Source of the DNA: Octopus vulgaris
Taxonomy: Eukaryota
Length of the DNA: 64,000 nucleotides
Assembly (NCBI GenBank): GCA_951406725.2
Contig: OX597814.1
Span: 62,434,001-62,498,000 of the forward strand
Direction of reading: 5' to 3'
The notes below the pieces were generated by a model. It did not search any database. It had not been told where the DNA came from and saw only the letters and a program-made list of their open reading frames with translations. Of the stretch, positions 5,046-52,794 are shown piece after piece (positions within the stretch are counted from its first letter, which is position 1; every line of letters starts with the position of its first letter). The position numbers and the translations under genes are program-made.

Positions 5046-5335
5046 TAAAAGCAATTAAGATTCAAGTCAGTTCTAATGAATTCACTTGAATGCGGTACTT
5101 AACTTAGATGCACCAGAAAACTATATGGTATTAACCATACAATAATGTGGGGTGATTATAAACGAGAAAAAAAACAACAAGAATGGATTAGTTTTTTAGT
5201 ACAATTGTTTCATACAAAGACAGGCTTTATTAAAAGCTGCAAATATTGCAGCAAAATATTGCAGCTTTTAATAAAGCCTGTCTTTGTATGAAACAATTGT
5301 ACTAAAAACTAATCCATTCTTGTTGCTTTTTTCTC

Positions 5336-5854: not shown

Positions 5855-5959
5855 CTTTGTGATATTTTTGCTGCTTATTACTCTACCTCTGGTATTCGAG
5901 TACTTTTTTTCCACCTTGTTTTGCATTTATGTGCTCACCCCGGTATATATATATATATA

Positions 5960-7229
5960 CTGGGTTTGGACAAAATAATGGAATCACCTTAAAATTTCAA
6001 AGAAATTAATTTTAATATGGAGTAGGACCGCCTTTGGCGGCAGTAATTACAGCTTGAATTCTACGAGGTATGGACTTGCACAAAGTTTGAATTCTTTCCA
6101 GAGGAATTTTTGTCCATGCTTCAGCTAAAACAGTCTCCAGCTCTTGTAGTGATGATGGTGGAGGATATCCTTGTTTTTCTAAAATGCACCATAAATGTTC
6201 AATAATATTGAGATCTGGGGACTGTTGTGGCGAAATAAGATGTTCAACTTCACTAGAATGTTCTTCGTGCCACTCAGTAACAACTTTACCTGTGGGAATT
6301 GGTGAATTATTATCCTGAAAGATTGTGTTTCCCCCCGGAAACAGTTTCGCAACCATAGAATGAATTTGATCAGATAAAATACTTAAATAGTCTTGACTAT
6401 TAATTTTGCCATGAAGGAAAACCACTGGGCCGGCAGATTTCCAAGATATCGCCACCCCCCAGATCATCACAGATCCTCCTCCATGTTTAACAGTTGGAAG
6501 AAGGCAGTCTGGGTCAAATGCTTCTTTTGGCTGTTTCCACACCTATACTCGGCCGGTGGGCAGAAATAGGGTAAAGGATGACTCGTCCGAGAAAATAACA
6601 TTCTTCCACTGCTCTAGGGACCAATTCTGTAGGTTTTTACTCCACTCTAAACGCTTTGCAACGTTTGTTTTTGAAAGTAGTGGTTTTCTGATTGCAGCCC
6701 TCCCGTGAAATCCGGCTTTGTGCAGCACCCGGCGAACAGTTTTTGTGGAAACTAGGTTCTCGAGGTGGCTATTAAGCTCTGCAGTAATTTTGGGAACTGT
6801 ACTTTTCTGATCCTTTCTAACAAGTTGCGTAAGAGTCCGACGGTCCCTATCTGAAAGTTTTGGTTTTTTTCCGGATTTTTGTTTCGACGAGGAGGTTTTT
6901 CCCTCTTTCTCAAAGGCAGTCATTGCTTTTGAGACAGTACTTCTTGATACACCAAACATTTCAGCTGTTTTCGTTACGCTAGCGCCTGCCATAGAGCACC
7001 AATAATTTGACCTGTTTGAAAGTCCGTTAGATCTGTCATTTTAATGAATTCTAATTACCTTTTTCTGACGATATCTGGAAAGTAAGAGCAATTTTAGCAA
7101 AACATATTAAGCAACACTGATAATAAATCAAAAGAATATATAAATAAACAAGCTTTTGACGGTTTTATAGGTGTTTCAAAATTATGATGCTATGATGCTA
7201 GGTGTTTCCATTATTTTGCCCAACCCCTG
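5960..7229 (-). mobile_element. Full-length Tc1-family DNA transposon
   Basis: TIRs ctgggtttggacaaaataatggaatcacct / aggtgtttccattattttgcccaacccctg, with TA on both sides and a transposase inside. Confidence 0.95.
6012..7039 (-). pseudogene. Tc1 (DD34E-type) transposase with an in-frame stop at 6543-6545 and a 5' frameshift
   Basis: HTH AGASVTKTAEMFGVSRSTVS, VIFSDES, TVKHGGGSVMIWG, FQDNNSP, SPDLNIIEHLW and GGPTPY. The probable original ATG is at 7039. Confidence 0.93.
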
Positions 7230-7239
7230 TATATACATA

Positions 7240-7453
7240 CAGGGTTGGGCAAAAGTCACTTGACAGTAAATGAAAGCCGTTTAATTCCAAGATTTATTCT
7301 TGTTTAACAACTGAATGAATTTAATATAAGCGTCTAATATGAAAATTGTTCAAACTGAAGTCCTTCTTGAGCGACACATTCAAGTCAATACAGAATTACA
7401 GATAGTATTTATGGAATTTTGATTTACTGTCGGGTGACCTTTGGCCAACCATG
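7240..7453. mobile_element. Tc1/mariner-type MITE
   Basis: Imperfect TIRs cagggttgggcaaaagtcacttgacagtaaat / atttactgtcgggtgacctttggccaaccatg, TA flanks, no ORF. Confidence 0.85.
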
Positions 7454-8062: not shown

Positions 8063-8095
<33 letters not shown>

Positions 8096-8103
<8 letters not shown>

Positions 8104-8726
8104 ATGTTACATTACTCGGTAGTCAAGATAAAACTCTGAGTTTCAGATGCCGAAGTGGAAATCCACAACACCATCTCTTCGGTTATCTGGCTATTTGAAA
8201 ACGTTATGAAAAAATACCGTTAAAAATGAAGGGAAATTACTCTGTTGTAACTCTGCTTTGCCTGCGTACTTATACATCGCTCGCATTTTTCGTCATAAAA
8301 ATTATATAAAAATACATAAAAATATATAAAAATATATAAAAATATATAAAATCTTCTTGGGACATAACACAGAAAGCATGTTCTATCCGTTTTCTTTAGG
8401 GGACCAAAAACGTAACAGGAATTTAGTCACATGTGGGCATGATCCGAAAAGCTCTGTCCTTGTATTTAGACATGTGGTAGGGTCTAAGCTGCTTTTCCAG
8501 ATAAGCCATCTCTCCATGTCGCATAAACCGCACCTTCCGCTGCCGTTAGTATAGGGCTTACATCTGGCCAAAATCTTCCATTGTATGTTATAATCGACAC
8601 CTTTATCTCTTAAAGACCAAATATGATTGGATAATTGTGTCGCTTTTCTTTTGTTCCAGTGCCTAAAGCTCAAAGTGTGGTTATTGAACCTGGCCTTGAA
8701 ATTACCCTCTGTCAGGCCCACGTATT
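8096..8726 (-). repeat. 3' pseudo-LTR of the PLE
   Basis: ~630 bp, near-identical to 10685-11315 (one substitution noticed, ttgaa/ttaaa). It contains the ORF C-terminus and 3' UTR. Confidence 0.93.
8126..8188 (-). ncRNA. Hammerhead ribozyme-like motif in the 3' pLTR
   Basis: Sense strand reads AGATAA-CCGAAGA-GATG(gtgtt GTGG attt CCAC ttcgg)CATC-T-GAAA-CTC A GAG-TT-TTATCT. Confidence 0.65.
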
Positions 8727-10509
8727 TCTTCGTCGAAACGGTGTCTTTAGTGGTTATAGAGTTTACGGTAGCTTCATATATGATGGTCTTGGACATGCAA
8801 GCTCCATTTAGCGGGCACAATTCTTTATTCCTGCATGAACAGCTGTTTTCTTCTTGTGTTTTTTGTATGTTATGATTGAATATGTTTTTAAAATTGGTAG
8901 TTGAACTAAAACTAATTTTTAAATTGTGTCTATTGAAGAGTTTCCTATAAGCATAGTTAACTGGAAAATGTCTATCTATCAGTGCTAGGAAATATTTACC
9001 TATATTGAAGGCCACCTCGGGTGAGTAAGGGGGCGTAAACCAGATGACCTTCCTATTTCTATTATTCCTTTTCCTTATTGTTGGGCTGGTGATAGGTGTA
9101 TATTTTATTTTTTCGCTAAAACCACTATCTTTTAAAGCTTTATTATAAACTGGGGCAACGCTATTGAAGATGTCCTCATTAGATGAGAGGCTAGAAATCC
9201 TCTTACTAATATTTTTAACTAAATTTTTGAATACTATAGGGGGATGGCATGAACCTACATTAATATAACTTAGTCTATCATTGGGCTTCCTATAAGGCTT
9301 ATAAATATTATTATTAAGATCTAAGGAAACGTCTAAGAAATTGACAACCGTCAGGTTAGTGTCTATAGTTATACTAAGTCCGAAGTGTTTCATTAACTGG
9401 ATAATATCCTTCCTAAAACGATCTTGTGCTGGTCCATTTGTATTAGCTGTTAAGGCGAGGGCATCATCTTTGTAGATGGCGAAATGTACGTTAGGGAATG
9501 TCTTACCGAAGGTATCTAGGAGAAAGAGTCCAATTAGATCACAGATGCCTGCCCCATCATATGAACCCATGCTCACATCGAAAGCGCCCTCCGTGTCGGT
9601 GTTTTTTACCCACTTTGCATTCTCACTGAAAAGTAATGTCTTTCTAGCATGGAAGATTATATCCTTATCATTGGTACTAATTTCTATGAAGTCACTAGCG
9701 AAGATTAGGGCTTTATCTAGCAGTTCTTTAGAGATAGAGGCATAAAAATCAACAATATCGAATTGTGTAAACCTCGCTTTTTTCTTATTCTTAATAGCTT
9801 TAAACCAGTCTACGACTTCTATACTATTGGACCATTACACTAGCCTAGTATCGGTCTTAATTTTCGTATTTATTTTATCTAAAATTTCTTTGCTAATAAT
9901 CCCTAGTTCTGACTTGGCTGGGTTGATAAGCCTACATTTAGGGTTGGAAAGGAAGTTTTCTTTGTGGTCTTTAATAGTAATAAAGGCCTCTTTTTGGGGG
10001 AGGGTTTCTATTTTTTTATCTAATTTAAGTTTAGCGGCGATGACGCTAGCTTCTTTATTAATTTCGTTATATGTCTGTGCCCTAGCCTTAGTATAATTAT
10101 TAATGATGCTGTTGTGTAAGAGTTGTGTGTATTTGCTGTTATCTACCAGGTATAAGTTCTTGGTTTTATCCGAAAAAAGTGCTTTTTTCTTGGAGCTTTT
10201 TATATGATCAATATCTTTTTTCAATTTATGTTGGAAATTGTTAAAAGACTTACGAAACTTTATTTTGCTCATGATCTTCAGCAGGTCCGCTTCGAAATCT
10301 TCCAAGCCTTTAATCCTAGGAGGGAATTTTTTGGATTTTATCCGATAGCAAATGTTTTCCTTGGTGTTCGCTTCTGTGTCAAAAAAGAAAGCCTTCCATC
10401 TCATACGCTTAATTACATCAGTAATTTTTTGCAGAAGTTTCTTAGAGTAAAAATCCTTTGATGGGATCGGTATATTTTTCATAGAATAATCTATGTGATA
10501 TGCGTCCAT
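8383..10509 (-). pseudogene. PLE RT/GIY-YIG polyprotein, 709 codons, single premature TAA at 9835-9837
   Basis: The two track ORFs are in frame and bridged by WSNSIEVVDWFK..FTQFDIVDFYASI..FDVSMGSYDGA. Motifs include YKDDAL (RT), VNFLDV, CSCRNKELCPLNGAC, IIY..KYVG (GIY-YIG) and CGLC..CPH. Confidence 0.93.
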
Positions 10510-10684
10510 ATTAGATTCTTTTGTTTGTGAGAGTCCTCAACCGATGTTAGGCGATAATCCCAAAAAGGTCGTATTAGCTCTTAGTTGAGAATAACGTCGT
10601 CCGGGAGGTGATTTATTGATAAAACGGTAAGATAACAAAAGAAAGAAAGAGACCTCAATATTATGTAAATAGAGGAAATTTATC

Positions 10685-11315
10685 TATACAATATGTTACA
10701 TTACTCGGTAGTCAAGATAAAACTCTGAGTTTCAGATGCCGAAGTGGAAATCCACAACACCATCTCTTCGGTTATCTGGCTATTTGAAAACGTTATGAAA
10801 AAATACCGTTAAAAATGAAGGGAAATTACTCTGTTGTAACTCTGCTTTGCCTGCGTACTTATACATCGCTCGCATTTTTCGTCATAAAAATTATATAAAA
10901 ATACATAAAAATATATAAAAATATATAAAAATATATAAAATCTTCTTGGGACATAACACAGAAAGCATGTTCTATCCGTTTTCTTTAGGGGACCAAAAAC
11001 GTAACAGGAATTTAGTCACATGTGGGCATGATCCGAAAAGCTCTGTCCTTGTATTTAGACATGTGGTAGGGTCTAAGCTGCTTTTCCAGATAAGCCATCT
11101 CTCCATGTCGCATAAACCGCACCTTCCGCTGCCGTTAGTATAGGGCTTACATCTGGCCAAAATCTTCCATTGTATGTTATAATCGACACCTTTATCTCTT
11201 AAAGACCAAATATGATTGGATAATTGTGTCGCTTTTCTTTTGTTCCAGTGCCTAAAGCTCAAAGTGTGGTTATTGAACCTGGCCTTAAAATTACCCTCTG
11301 TCAGGCCCACGTATT
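10685..11315 (-). repeat. 5' pseudo-LTR of the PLE (partial tandem copy)
   Basis: Duplicates 8096-8726 and explains ORF 10972-11310 (EN C-terminus). Confidence 0.93.
10715..10777 (-). ncRNA. Hammerhead ribozyme-like motif in the 5' pLTR
   Basis: Identical to the 8126-8188 copy. Confidence 0.65.
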
Positions 11316-11629
11316 ATTTTTATATATTTTTATATATTTTTATGTATTTTTATATAATTTTTATGACGAAAAATGCGAGCGATGTATAAGTACGCAGGCA
11401 AAGCAGAGTTACAACAGAGTAATTTCCCTTCATTTTTAACGGTATTTTTTCATAACGTTTTCAAATAGCCAGATAACCGAAGAGATGGTGTTGTGGATTT
11501 CCACTTCGGCATCTGAAACTCAGAGTTTTATCTTGACTACCGAGTAATGTAACATATTGTATAGATAAATTTCCTCTATTTACATAATATTGAGGTCTCT
11601 TTCTTTCTTTTGTTATCTTACCGTTTTAT

Positions 11630-11634
<5 letters not shown>
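11316..11634 (+). repeat. Inverted pseudo-LTR/tail copy
   Basis: Reverse complement of ~10614-10931. Confidence 0.93.
11471..11533 (+). ncRNA. Hammerhead ribozyme-like motif in the inverted pLTR copy
   Basis: Same motif on the + strand: stem I 11471-11476/11528-11533, core 11477-11483, GAAA 11515-11518. Confidence 0.65.
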
Positions 11635-11707
<73 letters not shown>

Positions 11708-13070: not shown

Positions 13071-13623
13071 AGGCACAAGGTCAATAAGTTCGGTGGGAAG
13101 GGGTAAGTCGATTACATCGACCTCAGAGCTCAACTAATACTTTTTTATCGACCCCGAAAGGATGATCTCGGCGGAATTTGAACTCAGAACATAGACAAAC
13201 GAAATACCTATTTCTTTACTACCCACAAGGGGATAAACTCAGAGAGAACAAACAAGGACAGACAAACATATTAAGTCGATTATATCGACTCCAGTGCGTA
13301 ACTGGTACTTATTTAATCGACCCCGAAAGGATGAAAGGCAAAGTCAACCTCGGCAGAATTTGAACTCAGAAAGTAGCGGCAGACGAAATACCTATTTCTT
13401 TACTACCCACAAGGGGCTAAACACAGAGGGGACAAACAAGGACTGACAAACGGATTAAGTCGATTACATCGATCCCAGTGTGTAACTGGTACTTAATTTA
13501 TCGACCCCGAAAGGATGAAAGGCAAAGTCGACCTCGGCAGAATTTGAACTCAGAACGTAACGGCAGACGAAATACGGCTACGCATTTCGCCCGGCGTACT
13601 AACGTTTCTGCCAGCTCACCGTC
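13071..13623 (-). mobile_element. Three chained tRNA-derived SINEs (Nin-domain-like family A)
   Basis: The reverse strand has an A box (agctggcagaaacgttag), a B box (gttcaaat) and the central gcctttcatcctttcggggtcgata..aagtaccag. Two 184-bp units at 13208-13391 and 13392-13575. Confidence 0.88.
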
Positions 13624-14642: not shown

Positions 14643-15103
14643 GTAAAATATGAAAAATCAACGAAAATGCACATTTTAAATAAAAAAAGGCTATTTATAA
14701 CCGGTAGCGACAAATATATACATTTAGATTGACTGAGGTAATAATACGAGTCATAAAAGTCATTATTATGAGATGATTATAAGATGATAATAAAGTGAGA
14801 GAACAAAACGGACCATGGTTTACGCGAAGCTATTCATCGTTTACGATTCATCAAAGCGATGAATAGTTTCGCGTAAACCACGGTCCGTTTTGTTCTCTCA
14901 CTTTATTATCATCTTATAATCATCTCATAATAATGACTTTTATGACTCGTATTATTACCTCAGTCAATCTAAATGTATATATTTGTCACTACCGGTCATC
15001 AATAACCTTTTTTTTTATTTGCAATGTGTATTTTCGTTGATTTTTCATATTTTACCCTTACATTGCTACGTGTATTTTATATTTTCTTTTCGTAACATAT
15101 TTC

Positions 15104-37265: not shown

Positions 37266-37737
37266 AATAAATATAAGAGAGTGGTCACTATATGGCTCAC
37301 TCTAGCACCAGTTAATCCAAAAGGTTTCAACCACAAAAATACATGTTTCCCATGAAAGTCAGTACGATTGTTAGCTCACACGGACAGGGCAAATAAAAAA
37401 TAACAAAAATACAGATTATTTTGGGACAATTGTTTCGCTATTGTCCCAAAATAATCTGTATTTTTGTTATTTTTTATTTGCCCTGTCCGTGTGAGCTAAC
37501 AATCGTACTGACTTTCATGGGAAACATGTATTTTTGTGGTTGAAACCTTTTGGATTAACTGGTGCTAGAGTGAGCCATATAGTGACCACTCTCTTATATT
37601 TATTTTGTAAAAATATTATAATATATTATAAAATATTATAATAATCCAGGTTTCTCGGAGCACTAGGCCACTTGGTGTTGAATAGATATACTATTAAATT
37701 AGTATCTAATTCTCTCACCCTTATTAATTAATTATAT
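37266..37737. mobile_element. Perfect 165-bp-arm fold-back insert next to (TA)n
   Basis: Arms 37266-37430 and 37440-37604 with a 9-nt loop; the right side extends to ~37737. Confidence 0.88.
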
Positions 37738-46296: not shown

Positions 46297-48568
46297 GCCT
46301 GTGTGGCAAATAAAGAATAAGTTTGTAGTTTGGTCTTCTTCCGTTGTAGTTTGTGATGAGTTATTCAAAACTGGATTTACTTGCTGTTTGTTGTATCATT
46401 AAGGTGTTAGTGTTTTAATTGTTTAAAAATTTTGCCTATTTGCAGGCGTTGTTGAAAAGTGTGTGCTTCCCCTACTAGGGAAGGAATTGAACTGCTTTGG
46501 ACTGTTGTTGCAGTGTTATTGACTGTTATTATGTTTTGAAGTGTTTTTCTTTGTGACTCGCCATTGACTGTTATTGACTGTTATTATGTTTTGAAGTGTT
46601 TTTCTTTGTGACTCGCATAAAAATAATATTCTCGCGACAAAGTGTTTTTAATATCAAGAATTTTTTTGTTGAAAAATTCAAAAATGGAATTAGAACAAAC
46701 AGTTGAAAATGGAAAAAAAGTTGGACTACGCAGCAGTTACAAACTTATCACATCAGGATATTATTATAACCAGGAAGGAATACCAGACATGTTACAGAAT
46801 GTTAACAGTTGATGGAGGAGATGCAAACATCTCCCCATCAAGTGAAATTACGTGTCAGAAAAACAATAAGACGATTATATATAAATGATTCGATGTGGAA
46901 GAGAAGATCTCATACATCACAAAGGAAAAAATTGAAAAATGCCTCGGGTCGATTTGGAATGACGTAACATATGTGGCCCGAGGCAAAAAGCTTGCCTCCA
47001 TCGAAGTGAGATTTATTAGTGTGGAGAAAGCTAGGGAGCACTCTGTTAGAACCCTAAAAACGAAGGAAGTCGTACTACTCCCCTCATATCTGGGACACAG
47101 AACGTCCCGGATTTGAATAGAGGAGGTACCACCCGAGGTAGACGTTACATGGATTGTCGCAGCTCTTTGATATGCAAGAGAAAATAAATTGAACATATTG
47201 CAAATAACCCGCTCTGCCTACCAAAATTGGTTAAAATAGAGCGTTGATATTCTCATCCAGGCCACACTTGGAGATTTAGAGGAAATCCCCGGTCGCATGA
47301 TGATCCGGAGAGGAGACAGTACTAAAAATTCAGGTCGAGGGAAGAAAGCCTCGATGCTTTAAATGTGGTAGAAAAGGCCACTTGAGAGTAAAGTGTGGCA
47401 CTTCTAAAAAGGCTCCCTCCCCGACCAGAGAAGAAGGAAAAACTGAAAAACAACAAGAAAATAAAGAGACAAAGAAGCAAAAGTCAAAGAAGAAGGAACC
47501 AAAGGAAAATACCAAAGATGGAGAAGAGCAGGCAGGTGCGAGTGAGGCTCTTCCTCGGGTAGACGACATGGGGATCATCATACCACTCGTGAAGTTCTTC
47601 CTTCCACAGTTGACCTCACTTCGAGATTTAGGTCCTTGGATCAGGCGAAGACCTAAGCTGGGTGATTGGCAATTAGAGTGCCAACAGGCATTCACGCTTC
47701 TCTCCTGGACAGGCAATACCGGCGGCTGGAGTTTCCTCGCGTACTTCTATAGTGGTTTGGTAGAGTATATGTCAGACGATGTCCTGGAGGAAACCCTGGG
47801 TTTCGATAGAAATCAGCTGGTCAACCTGCTCTGAAAGACTATCGGGCCGGGGTACCTGGATAATTACCAGAAATCCCTGGCCTAGTTGTGTTCCCGATCG
47901 GCCTTACTTGTTCGAGAGAGGCTATCGAGGCATGGTTATGACATCCTACCGACATGCCCGAGGTGAGGGTGGGACAGTGAAACTGTCTTGTACGTCTTCG
48001 TGCAGTGTGCGAAGATAAAGGGATTGATAGCCCATGTTGATCAGTTCTTGTCGACAAGAAGAGTACAGCTATTGGCTGAATCGATTATCAAGAGTGTTCC
48101 GCCCTCTTCCCCTAACAGGCAGTTTTTTCTGCATAGTAGCCATACCGAAAAAAATATTATGGAGGACATGGGCGAAAGGGATCGCGACAAGTACCTCTAT
48201 TTCCAGTCAAGGTCTAGTTAATTATTTTAACTATCACCTCAGAAGTAAGATCAGGCTGGAATAGAGATACCTATCGCACAGTATGTTTCGAAAAAGATGG
48301 CTGTATGTGGAAAGTTGAGGATAGAAGGAGCTGCCTGAGCCTAGCTATTCGGCCTGAAAAAAAAAAGGGAGCGTTGGGTTTATTAGCCCAGCAAACTTAC
48401 TAATTTTTATCCGATTTTATTTATTAAAAAATTTTTAACATTATATATTTTTTAGAATCATTAACGGAAAAAAAACCTCGAATTCTTTTATGTGTGTCTA
48501 CACTTGTGCCGTCCCCTCTATGTTCCGCCCTATGTGGCGAATAAAGAAAACGTTCGTGGTTTGGTCTT
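46297..48568 (+). mobile_element. Tx1/L1-type non-LTR retrotransposon deletion derivative
   Basis: Broken ORF1 from ~46709 with the gag-type knuckle CFKCGRKGHLRVKC, then an ORF2 C-terminal zinc-finger region (PTCPR..ETVLYVFVQC). No EN or RT is visible. AATAAA near the 3' end. Confidence 0.7.
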
Positions 48569-51956: not shown

Positions 51957-52794
51957 ATAAATTTATATAAATAAGGAGAAGATCATTATTTGAAATACCG
52001 ATCATATCAAGTGGCCAGCGTGGGAATAAAAACCTTATAGGCAATAATTATTATTAAAATTATAAATAAGGATATCTAAAAGATATCACCATGCTAGAGA
52101 TAGCAGTCGAAAATTGTCTCTAAAACCACATCAAGTAATTCATACAACACCAGGAGAAAAGACAAAAGGGACAAATAAACTAGCAAAAAATTATTGAATA
52201 ATGCCAGAGATTTCTGGCTTTGCAAGCAATATACTCTGCCTCTTCAGTGGGATATACGCAGAAAGTATATAATTACAAATATATATACACAACATACGAA
52301 TATTTACCTATACGCACGTATACATGTTTTAAATACATTTAATTATAATTTTAATAATAATTATTACTTATAAGGGATCGGTATTTTAAATAACGACCTT
52401 ATCTTTATATAAATTCATATATTTACTTCGTCATTATATTCACTGCTGTGGTATTTTAACCATATAACACGTAGAGTTTAGACAGACAATTAAACCGGTT
52501 GTGTGCATACGCATATATGTATGTGTGTATATGTGCGTATATGTAAATATTCGTATTTTGTATATATATATTTGTAATTATGTACTTTCTGTGTATATCT
52601 CACTGAAGAGACAGAGTATATTGTTTGCAAAGCCAGAAATCTCTGGCATTATCCAATATTTTTTTGCTAATTTATTTGTCCCTTTGTCTTTTCTCCTGGT
52701 GTTGTATGAATTACTTGATGTGGTTTTAGAGTCAAGTTTTGACTGTTATCTCTAGCATGGTGATATCTTTTAGATACCCTTAATTATAATTTTA
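51957..52794. mobile_element. ORF-less inverted/permuted repeat insert (retrozyme-like) in (TA)n
   Basis: Inverted pairs 52055-52324/52526-52794 and 51957-52065/52343-52419. A 14-mer repeats at 52340 and 52781. CTGAAGA..GCC-A-GAAA motif at 52603-52639. Confidence 0.7.

What the first reader, a model, noticed from the sequence alone, without database searches (positions are those of the whole stretch)
11471..11533. PLE pLTR hammerhead with three atypical features, present three times
The motif AGATAA-CCGAAGA-GATG..CATC-T-GAAA-CTCAGAG-TT-TTATCT occurs at 8126-8188(-), 10715-10777(-) and 11471-11533(+). It has a U4C core, an extra U between stem II and GAAA, and an extended stem II with an internal loop (GTGG/CCAC). 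The predicted site is GUU and stem III is near-palindromic. Two sense copies 2589 nt apart could pair as a dimer and release a unit-length RNA (inference).
Basis: partly seen in the sequence, partly recalled or inferred. Interest (0 to 1): 0.75.

Follow-up and report, generated by a model that had tools for sequence, protein, structure and literature searches.

The report
Variant hammerhead in young Penelope retrotransposon
The three motifs are pieces of one fresh insertion of a known kind of animal jumping gene that carries a predicted self-cutting RNA; most of its oddities are common in its relatives, but the most recently spreading copies carry two new changes that likely weaken cutting, which offers a natural test of whether these elements need to cut their RNA at all.

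Summary
Confirmed: three identical 63-nt type I hammerhead motifs. They are not independent; they are the two direct repeats and the inverted arm of one (TA)n-targeted Hydra-clade Penelope-like element, a clade already reported to carry hammerheads. The long stem II, palindromic stem III and GUU are ordinary for the clade. U4C is rare but known. An unpaired base before G12 is the unusual trait (0 of 48 related motifs). It is old: 7,533 genomic matches have it, 4 lack it. Older subfamilies have C there and U4; C4 and then U arose stepwise, and the C4/U form is the youngest and commonest (3,651 matches). Stems covary and the only shared core change in young copies is at the free position N7, so selection still acts. 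Copies end 31-43 or 94-107 nt past the cut site, and 96 of 100 read through it, so a linear cut monomer cannot be the template. Best reading: a slow, likely protein-assisted dimer ribozyme yielding a re-closed circle; uncut RNA is the close rival. Cleavage is untested. This scan noted similar Penelope hammerhead ends on other DNA.

The parts
8096..11634 (.). One insertion of a Hydra-clade Penelope-like element: 1.25 tandem units on the minus strand plus an inverted 5'-truncated arm, between (TA)n tracts
8383..10509 (-). RT + GIY-YIG ORF, 708 codons; premature stop at 9835-9837 in this copy; 5 of 2127 nt differ from an open copy (L023)
   Evidence: weak GIY-YIG hit E 0.009; 13 of 88 top genomic matches have an open frame of 717 aa or more
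8089..8726 (-). Downstream repeat (3' end of ORF, 3' UTR, pLTR)
10678..11315 (-). Upstream direct repeat (partial tandem unit), 99.5% identical to the downstream one
11315..11637 (+). Inverted 5'-truncated arm with hammerhead and tail
   Evidence: (I1)
8126..8188 (-). Hammerhead copy 1; predicted cut between 8132 and 8131
10715..10777 (-). Hammerhead copy 2; predicted cut between 10721 and 10720
11466..11539 (+).
11477..11483 (+). Core strand C3-A9 with C at position 4 (derived from U)
11484..11513 (+). Extended stem II with two conserved mismatch positions
11514..11514 (+). Unpaired pyrimidine between stem II and G12 (U here, C in older subfamilies); U is predicted to pair with A9
11515..11527 (+). 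GAAA, palindromic stem III with one-base loop, GUU triplet; predicted cut after 11527
10614..10680 (-). 'Tail' between the two copy-end sites (+40 and +107 from the predicted cut), inferred reverse-transcription start sites
   Evidence: PMC11167929 passages

Best explanation
This is the pseudo-LTR hammerhead of a young, high-copy Hydra-clade Penelope-like retrotransposon, and it likely works as a slow ribozyme that is predicted to fold as a dimer, probably with help from the element's own protein, to cut tandem transcripts into a 2.6-kb unit that would be re-closed into a circle and copied into DNA. Shown: the element, the motif, its covariation, the stepwise core changes, the two fixed copy ends downstream of the cut site and read-through of the cut site. 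Inferred: transcription through two sense copies; pairing of the palindromic stems III; cleavage after GUU; ligation; reverse transcription starting at +36/40 and +107 and running through the resealed junction for more than one turn, which gives partial tandems, arrays and inverted arms. The C4 and U changes would lower the rate further (U is predicted to hold A9 in a Watson-Crick pair) without abolishing it.
For: Hydra-clade diagnostics met. Core conserved through five subfamilies while flanks change; N7 changes C>A>U; 93.1% of cells paired, with subfamily-level double changes at one stem I pair and one stem II pair. The extra pyrimidine is kept in 7,533 matches, lost in 4. In 108 young arms the only multi-locus variant inside the motif is at N7, against several in the 63 nt upstream. 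Two-copy minimum-energy fold has swapped stems I and a stem III duplex, -48.4 against -37.4 kcal/mol for two monomers. Copy 3' ends cluster at +31..+43 and +94..+107, none at the cut. Copies longer than one unit exist, including a four-hammerhead array with open ORFs. Sub-lineage variants agree between the two repeats in 14 of 15 tandem pairs, and this insertion's two private variants are in both repeats, as expected if both were copied from the same RNA bases. Precedent: low-rate dimer cleavage and the circle proposal (PMC4209133); protein-assisted cleavage and two internal start sites (PMC11167929); U4C slows a viroid hammerhead but supports infectivity (PMC3088659).
Against: No cleavage, ligation or circle was observed; available runs are contigs and cannot show ends. 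In the anole element, ribozyme-dead mutants insert normally in vitro, uncut RNA is the main substrate and no reads end at the cut. Read-through and matching repeats fit uncut or re-primed RNA equally. One of 15 tandem pairs disagrees at a shared site (L044). The strictly cleavage-ready dimer lies about 7 kcal/mol above the dimer minimum (hand-built structure missing one stem I pair), loop closure over 2.6 kb is not counted, and A9 is predicted paired with the new U (probability 0.92-0.95). Covariation counts come from 26 related copies picked as closest to their subfamily consensus, and only 4 of 25 pairs show a double change (227 of 500 shuffles reach that).
Confidence: 0.45

Rival explanations
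1. The ribozyme is real but its cut is not on the path to insertion: uncut, longer-than-unit RNA is the template (with re-priming on the same RNA), and cutting only trims, releases or destroys RNA, or the fold mainly positions the protein next to the two start sites.
For: 96 of 100 young copies pass the cut site. No sharp excess of 5' ends at +1: about 16 of 36 true truncations among 61 hits in the young subfamily and 20 of 66 among the first 100 of 229 hits in older ones fall at +1..-2 (counted by eye). Same conclusion in vitro for the anole element (PMC11167929).
Against: Needs another way to make both repeats and whole arrays match at private sites; does not by itself explain lasting selection on catalytic positions.
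Confidence: 0.32
2. The youngest subfamily's hammerhead is catalytically dead or nearly so (C4, A9 paired with the new U, GUU triplet, a C.A mismatch in distal stem I) and survives only as structure; the element amplified without cleavage.
For: Stepwise departure from consensus toward the youngest and most numerous form (2,621, 727, 3,651 matches); predicted A9-U pair absent in all older subfamilies; Naiads were reported to amplify without canonical hammerheads (PMC8557442).
Against: Shared variants in young copies avoid the core except N7 (small numbers); C4 also removes a predicted misfold between the core strand and stem III; U4C is tolerated in a viroid and occurs in another Hydra-clade element.
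Confidence: 0.2
3. Chance resemblance to a hammerhead in a repeat end.
For: Fold z-score only -1.72; no Rfam hammerhead hit among those listed.
Against: Same position and architecture in related elements (48 distinct motifs from 78 loci) and in the published Hydra table; covariation and N7-only core change.
Confidence: 0.02

Closest known systems
Hydra-clade PLEs and their hammerheads, including Hydra-1_Obim (Craig et al. 2021, PMC8557442; seen: passages, section 11, supplement parts 1-2 and a supplement search)
   Same: [quoted passage not shown]
   Different: A distinct family (protein clearly similar to but not the same as Hydra-1_Obim, compared by eye). All 26 Hydra rows of File S2 have U4; none shows a one-sided unpaired base before G12 (many have a symmetric U.U at 10.1/11.1; Hydra-1_oBim has an extra base on the 5' side).
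Minimal PLE hammerheads (Cervera and de la Pena 2014, PMC4209133; seen: parts 1-2 of 4, no supplements)
   Same: Type I, short palindromic stem III, larger than usual helix II, dimer model, circle proposal, many solitary truncated copies.
   Different: Their extra nucleotide lies between positions 9 and 10.1 (5' side); here it lies between 11.1 and 12 (3' side).
PAc, the anole Poseidon element (Frangieh et al. 2024, PMC11167929; seen: passages)
   Same: Two internal reverse-transcription start sites bounding a tail, AT-rich targets, hammerhead upstream of the start sites.
   Different: Different clade; there the cut lies inside the ORF and the tail is 30-40 nt, here the cut lies about 210 nt upstream of the ATG and the tail is about 67 nt.
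Natural hammerhead core variants (Perreault et al. 2011, PMC3088659; seen: passages, section 8)
   Same: U4C known from a viroid, reduced activity in vitro; U10.1-U11.1 mismatch known.
   Different: The insertions named in the text seen are after A6, at 13a and near C3; one between 11.1 and 12 is not named there (figures not seen).

Membership tests
Hydra-clade PLE | Single ORF, RT with C-terminal GIY-YIG endonuclease, unit under 3 kb | tested here: met
   708-codon ORF, 2589-nt unit, weak Pfam GIY-YIG hit at the C-terminal part
Hydra-clade PLE | RWK motif and DKG changed to DKT | tested here: met
   RWK at 37, DKT at 114, conserved in alignment A1
Hydra-clade PLE | CxCX5C linker, CxxC and CxH motifs, no CCHH cysteines between GIY and YIG | tested here: met
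   CxCX5C at 557, CxxC at 660, CxH at 691, no C between the two motifs (definition)
Hydra-clade PLE | Insertion into (TA)n, pLTR partial tandem, inverted arm and tail | tested here: met
Hydra-clade PLE | RT phylogeny groups with Hydra reference families | not tested
   No tree with the published references was built; similarity to Hydra-1_Obim judged by eye
Type I minimal hammerhead ribozyme | Core CUGANGA / GAAA / NUH | tested here: inconclusive
   Six of seven 5' core positions, GAAA and GUU match; position 4 is C, a known natural variant; older subfamilies match fully
Type I minimal hammerhead ribozyme | Three helices supported by covariation | tested here: met
   93.1% cells paired against 34-52% when slid; double changes in stems I and II; stem III invariant, so uninformative
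Type I minimal hammerhead ribozyme | Stem II pair 10.1-11.1 directly adjacent to G12 | tested here: not met
   Preferred register leaves one pyrimidine unpaired before G12 in all subfamilies folded; the alternative register (outer base paired, inner C bulged) costs 3.4 kcal/mol with C and 5.9 with U
Type I minimal hammerhead ribozyme | Palindromic stem III allowing a dimer | tested here: met
   Self-duplex -9.8 kcal/mol, no hairpin as monomer; dimer fold predicted
Type I minimal hammerhead ribozyme | Self-cleavage 3' of position 17 | not testable with these tools
   Needs an in vitro assay or raw RNA reads
Non-LTR retrozyme | Short non-coding tandem unit | tested here: not met
   Unit is 2589 nt and encodes RT-EN

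The most novel reading that the evidence does not exclude
A hammerhead with an unpaired pyrimidine between stem II and G12, kept through at least five subfamilies, was throttled in two steps (U4 to C, then C to U trapping A9) in the lineage that went on to make the latest burst of copies: either cleavage became dispensable or weaker cutting raised transposition by sparing the template. This would be a natural in-genome series showing what PLE hammerheads are for.
Probability: 0.2. Interest if true: 0.62.

Novelty: new variant of a known kind. Interest (0 to 1): 0.36.

Why it matters
Why Penelope-like elements keep hammerheads is open: cleavage is slow in vitro and was not needed for insertion in the one reconstituted system. 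This family supplies three natural forms of one ribozyme (U4/C, C4/C, C4/U), each with hundreds to thousands of copies, and intact ORFs in the youngest. Their cleavage rates can be compared directly, and fixed copy ends make circle versus uncut-template models testable. The 3'-side extra base also explains why strict hammerhead descriptors would miss over 7,500 motifs in this genome (inference). As a system it is already known.

Tried and rejected
Rfam scan: no hammerhead family among 150 of 157 listed hits. Expression: no RNA holder listed on record; contigs of eight runs guessed to be RNA or of unknown kind show no GT..AG splice joint and cannot show ends, so an intron ending at stem I, as in D. 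virilis Penelope, is unsupported; the AG just upstream of stem I is also absent from older subfamilies. CpG decay as the source of U4 in old copies: rejected, S3 25 of 25 and S6 14 of 14 have U and none the CA product (S5 was defined with U4). Extra U as the ancestral state: my first pattern suggested it; similarity-selected copies showed C. Extra U as the clade's U10.1.U11.1 mismatch: rejected, no 5' partner. Genomic footprint of cleavage (5' ends at +1): no sharp spike. Idea that U4C compensates the loop III G>A change: energies are suggestive but U4 with that loop occurs in 6 of 48 related motifs, so not adopted. Double compensation in distal stem I: dropped, S3 pairs in another register. 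Order among the three oldest subfamilies is unresolved (divergence 0.064-0.080). Dropped rows: 2 of the 48 metagenome motifs are probably false hits (L316 at 135, L362 minus) but are left in the count; 25 of 61 and about 34 of 100 hits were set aside as indels; one internal deletion (L164) was dropped. Pfam found no RT family for the protein. Papers not held: Lunse et al. 2017 and Nelson and Uhlenbeck 2008; they, and the supplementary figures of PMC4209133 and PMC3088659, may already show a base between 11.1 and 12 or give rates for these changes.

Full report
Observation. The 63-mer is identical at all three stated places and parses as described. All three belong to one insertion: a 638-nt direct repeat at 8089-8726 and 10678-11315 (99.5% identical, spacing 2589) and a 323-nt inverted arm at 11315-11637, with (TA)n at both ends. 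The copy named in the finding is in the inverted arm. Folding energy alone is not significant and Rfam lists no hammerhead hit.

The element. The minus strand encodes a 708-codon RT and GIY-YIG protein with one premature stop in this copy. The 88 best genomic matches are 99-100% identical and 13 have an open frame of 717 aa or more, so the family is very young. [quoted passage not shown] The closest described family there is Hydra-1_Obim, similar but distinct (by eye); the host is probably an octopus (inference). There are 1,022 protein relatives at E<=1e-20 among 7,997 candidates scored.

How atypical are the features? From 78 related metagenome loci a descriptor recovered 48 distinct motifs, 2 probably false. 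By my count of that output: stem II of 9 bp or more in 11; the same CUC-N-GAG stem III in 12; at the base of stem II, U.U in 20, G-C in 18, G.U in 3, C.A in 2, A-U in 1, an extra 5' base in 2 (plus the 2 doubtful rows); an extra base on the 3' side only, 0. C4 occurs in 2, one of them in the 3' UTR of another Hydra-clade element. All 26 Hydra rows of File S2 have U4, and U at position 17 is frequent. U4C is a known viroid variant with lower activity in vitro (PMC3088659). So the long stem, palindrome and GUU are ordinary, U4C is rare but known, and the one-sided base before G12 is the unusual trait. I did not find it described in searches, but two key papers were not held and several supplements were not seen.

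History of the variant. Exact-pattern counts in the own genome, each with 0 reversed-control hits: U4 with extra C 2,621; U4 with extra U 534 (largely CpG decay of C, inferred); C4 with extra C 727; C4 with extra U 3,651; no extra base 4. Copies sort into five subfamilies: three older with U4 and C (divergence 0.064-0.080), one with C4 and C (0.056), and the window's with C4 and U (0.013). These samples were partly chosen by pattern. Older copies carry ORF remnants, several at 71-81% identity to the window's protein in the endonuclease region, so this is one lineage. The extra pyrimidine is therefore old and retained; C4 and then U are derived.

Is it under selection as a ribozyme? In 26 copies chosen as closest to their subfamily consensus, 93.1% of cells pair, against 34-52% for slid partners; pair 10-70 changes G-C to A-U and pair 32-41 runs C-G, U-G, U-A. 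Only 4 of 25 pairs change on both sides, which shuffles often reach, and the rows are related. Catalytic positions stay fixed while N7 changes twice. In 108 young arms the only variant inside the motif shared by several loci is at N7 (10 arms), whereas the 63 nt upstream hold several shared variants (overlapping loci inflate counts). Folding puts G10.1 on the inner C with the extra base unpaired in every subfamily; with U, A9 is predicted to pair with it (0.92-0.95), with C never. That would compete with the G12.A9 pair of the active core (established knowledge, recalled). The two-copy fold of the window's motif has swapped stems I and a stem III duplex; a strictly cleavage-ready dimer lies about 7 kcal/mol higher.

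What the insertions say about the template. In 60 fetched loci, copy 3' ends cluster at +31 to +43 or +94 to +107 from the predicted cut, next to (TA)n, and none lies at the cut, matching the two internal start sites and tail of the anole element (PMC11167929). Of the first 100 of 2,135 copies picked by a downstream anchor, 96 run through the cut to beyond -14. Genome-wide, 61 young copies and 229 of 4,118 older ones differ from the motif just upstream of the anchor; by eye there is at most a slight excess of ends at +1 to -2. A linear cut monomer would give cDNAs of at most 107 nt, so ORF-bearing copies come from uncut or resealed RNA. Longer-than-unit copies and a four-hammerhead array exist. 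In 14 of 15 tandem pairs sub-lineage variants agree between repeats, and the window's two private variants sit in both repeats. This argues against tandems arising mainly by insertion beside unrelated copies and for copying the same RNA bases more than once, by a circle or by re-priming; it does not separate those two.

Mechanism and verdict. I favour slow, probably protein-assisted dimer cleavage, resealing and rolling copying (0.45), the model proposed in PMC4209133, over an uncut template with cleavage as a side role (0.32; supported in vitro by PMC11167929) and a dead ribozyme in the youngest subfamily (0.2). RNA data could not decide. The system is known; the variant and its stepwise history are new as far as my searches reach. 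Papers also consulted: bioRxiv 10.64898/2026.07.22.740005 (part 1 of 5), PMC6765202 (passages), PMC13282606 (passages, no mention of hammerheads or Hydra), PMC11014351 and PMC7229834 (passages). Earlier notes of this scan describe similar Penelope hammerhead ends and circle-type copying on other DNA; none matched this sequence. Interest 0.36.

Noticed in passing
G000:C1 young copies; window equivalent 11450-11475: 5' ends of young copies pile up just upstream of the hammerhead (-53 to -78): 16 of 100 arms, 12 of 23 loci with an end in +7..-120, scan-corrected p about 0.02, giving 90-180-nt hammerhead-plus-tail inserts, often head to head. Not seen as a peak in 61 older arms. A transcription start in the pLTR or an RT stall are possible causes.
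   Followed up: partly
L187 and L188 (G000:C1:57208200-57223300): Array with four tandem hammerheads and an inverted two-hammerhead arm; three 708-codon open frames.
   Followed up: partly
G000, e.g. C1:18116334 and C1:27789227: Multi-copy C4/U variant with a 3-nt shorter stem II and an intact core.
   Followed up: no
L319:2168 (+) and L357 minus strand near 2464: Two further hammerheads with C4 in metagenome contigs; the second lies behind another Hydra-clade ORF, the first belongs to some other element.
   Followed up: partly
window 5950-7240: Tc1/mariner transposon remnant: HTH_Tnp_Tc3_2 and DDE_3 in two frames split by a stop, about 40-bp terminal inverted repeats.
   Followed up: partly
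window 37266-37604, 14682-15014, 52165-52685, 5200-5301: Near-perfect fold-back elements with arms of about 45-165 nt, MITE-like.
   Followed up: no
window 13167-13608 and 22372-60543: Dispersed SINE-like repeat family with a 184-nt tandem.
   Followed up: no
window 47304-47834 (+): 176-aa frame with a weak zinc-knuckle hit, E 0.005.
   Followed up: no
L145 (G000:C9:80205082): An unrelated hammerhead-like motif with a different stem II picked up by the no-extra-base pattern.
   Followed up: no
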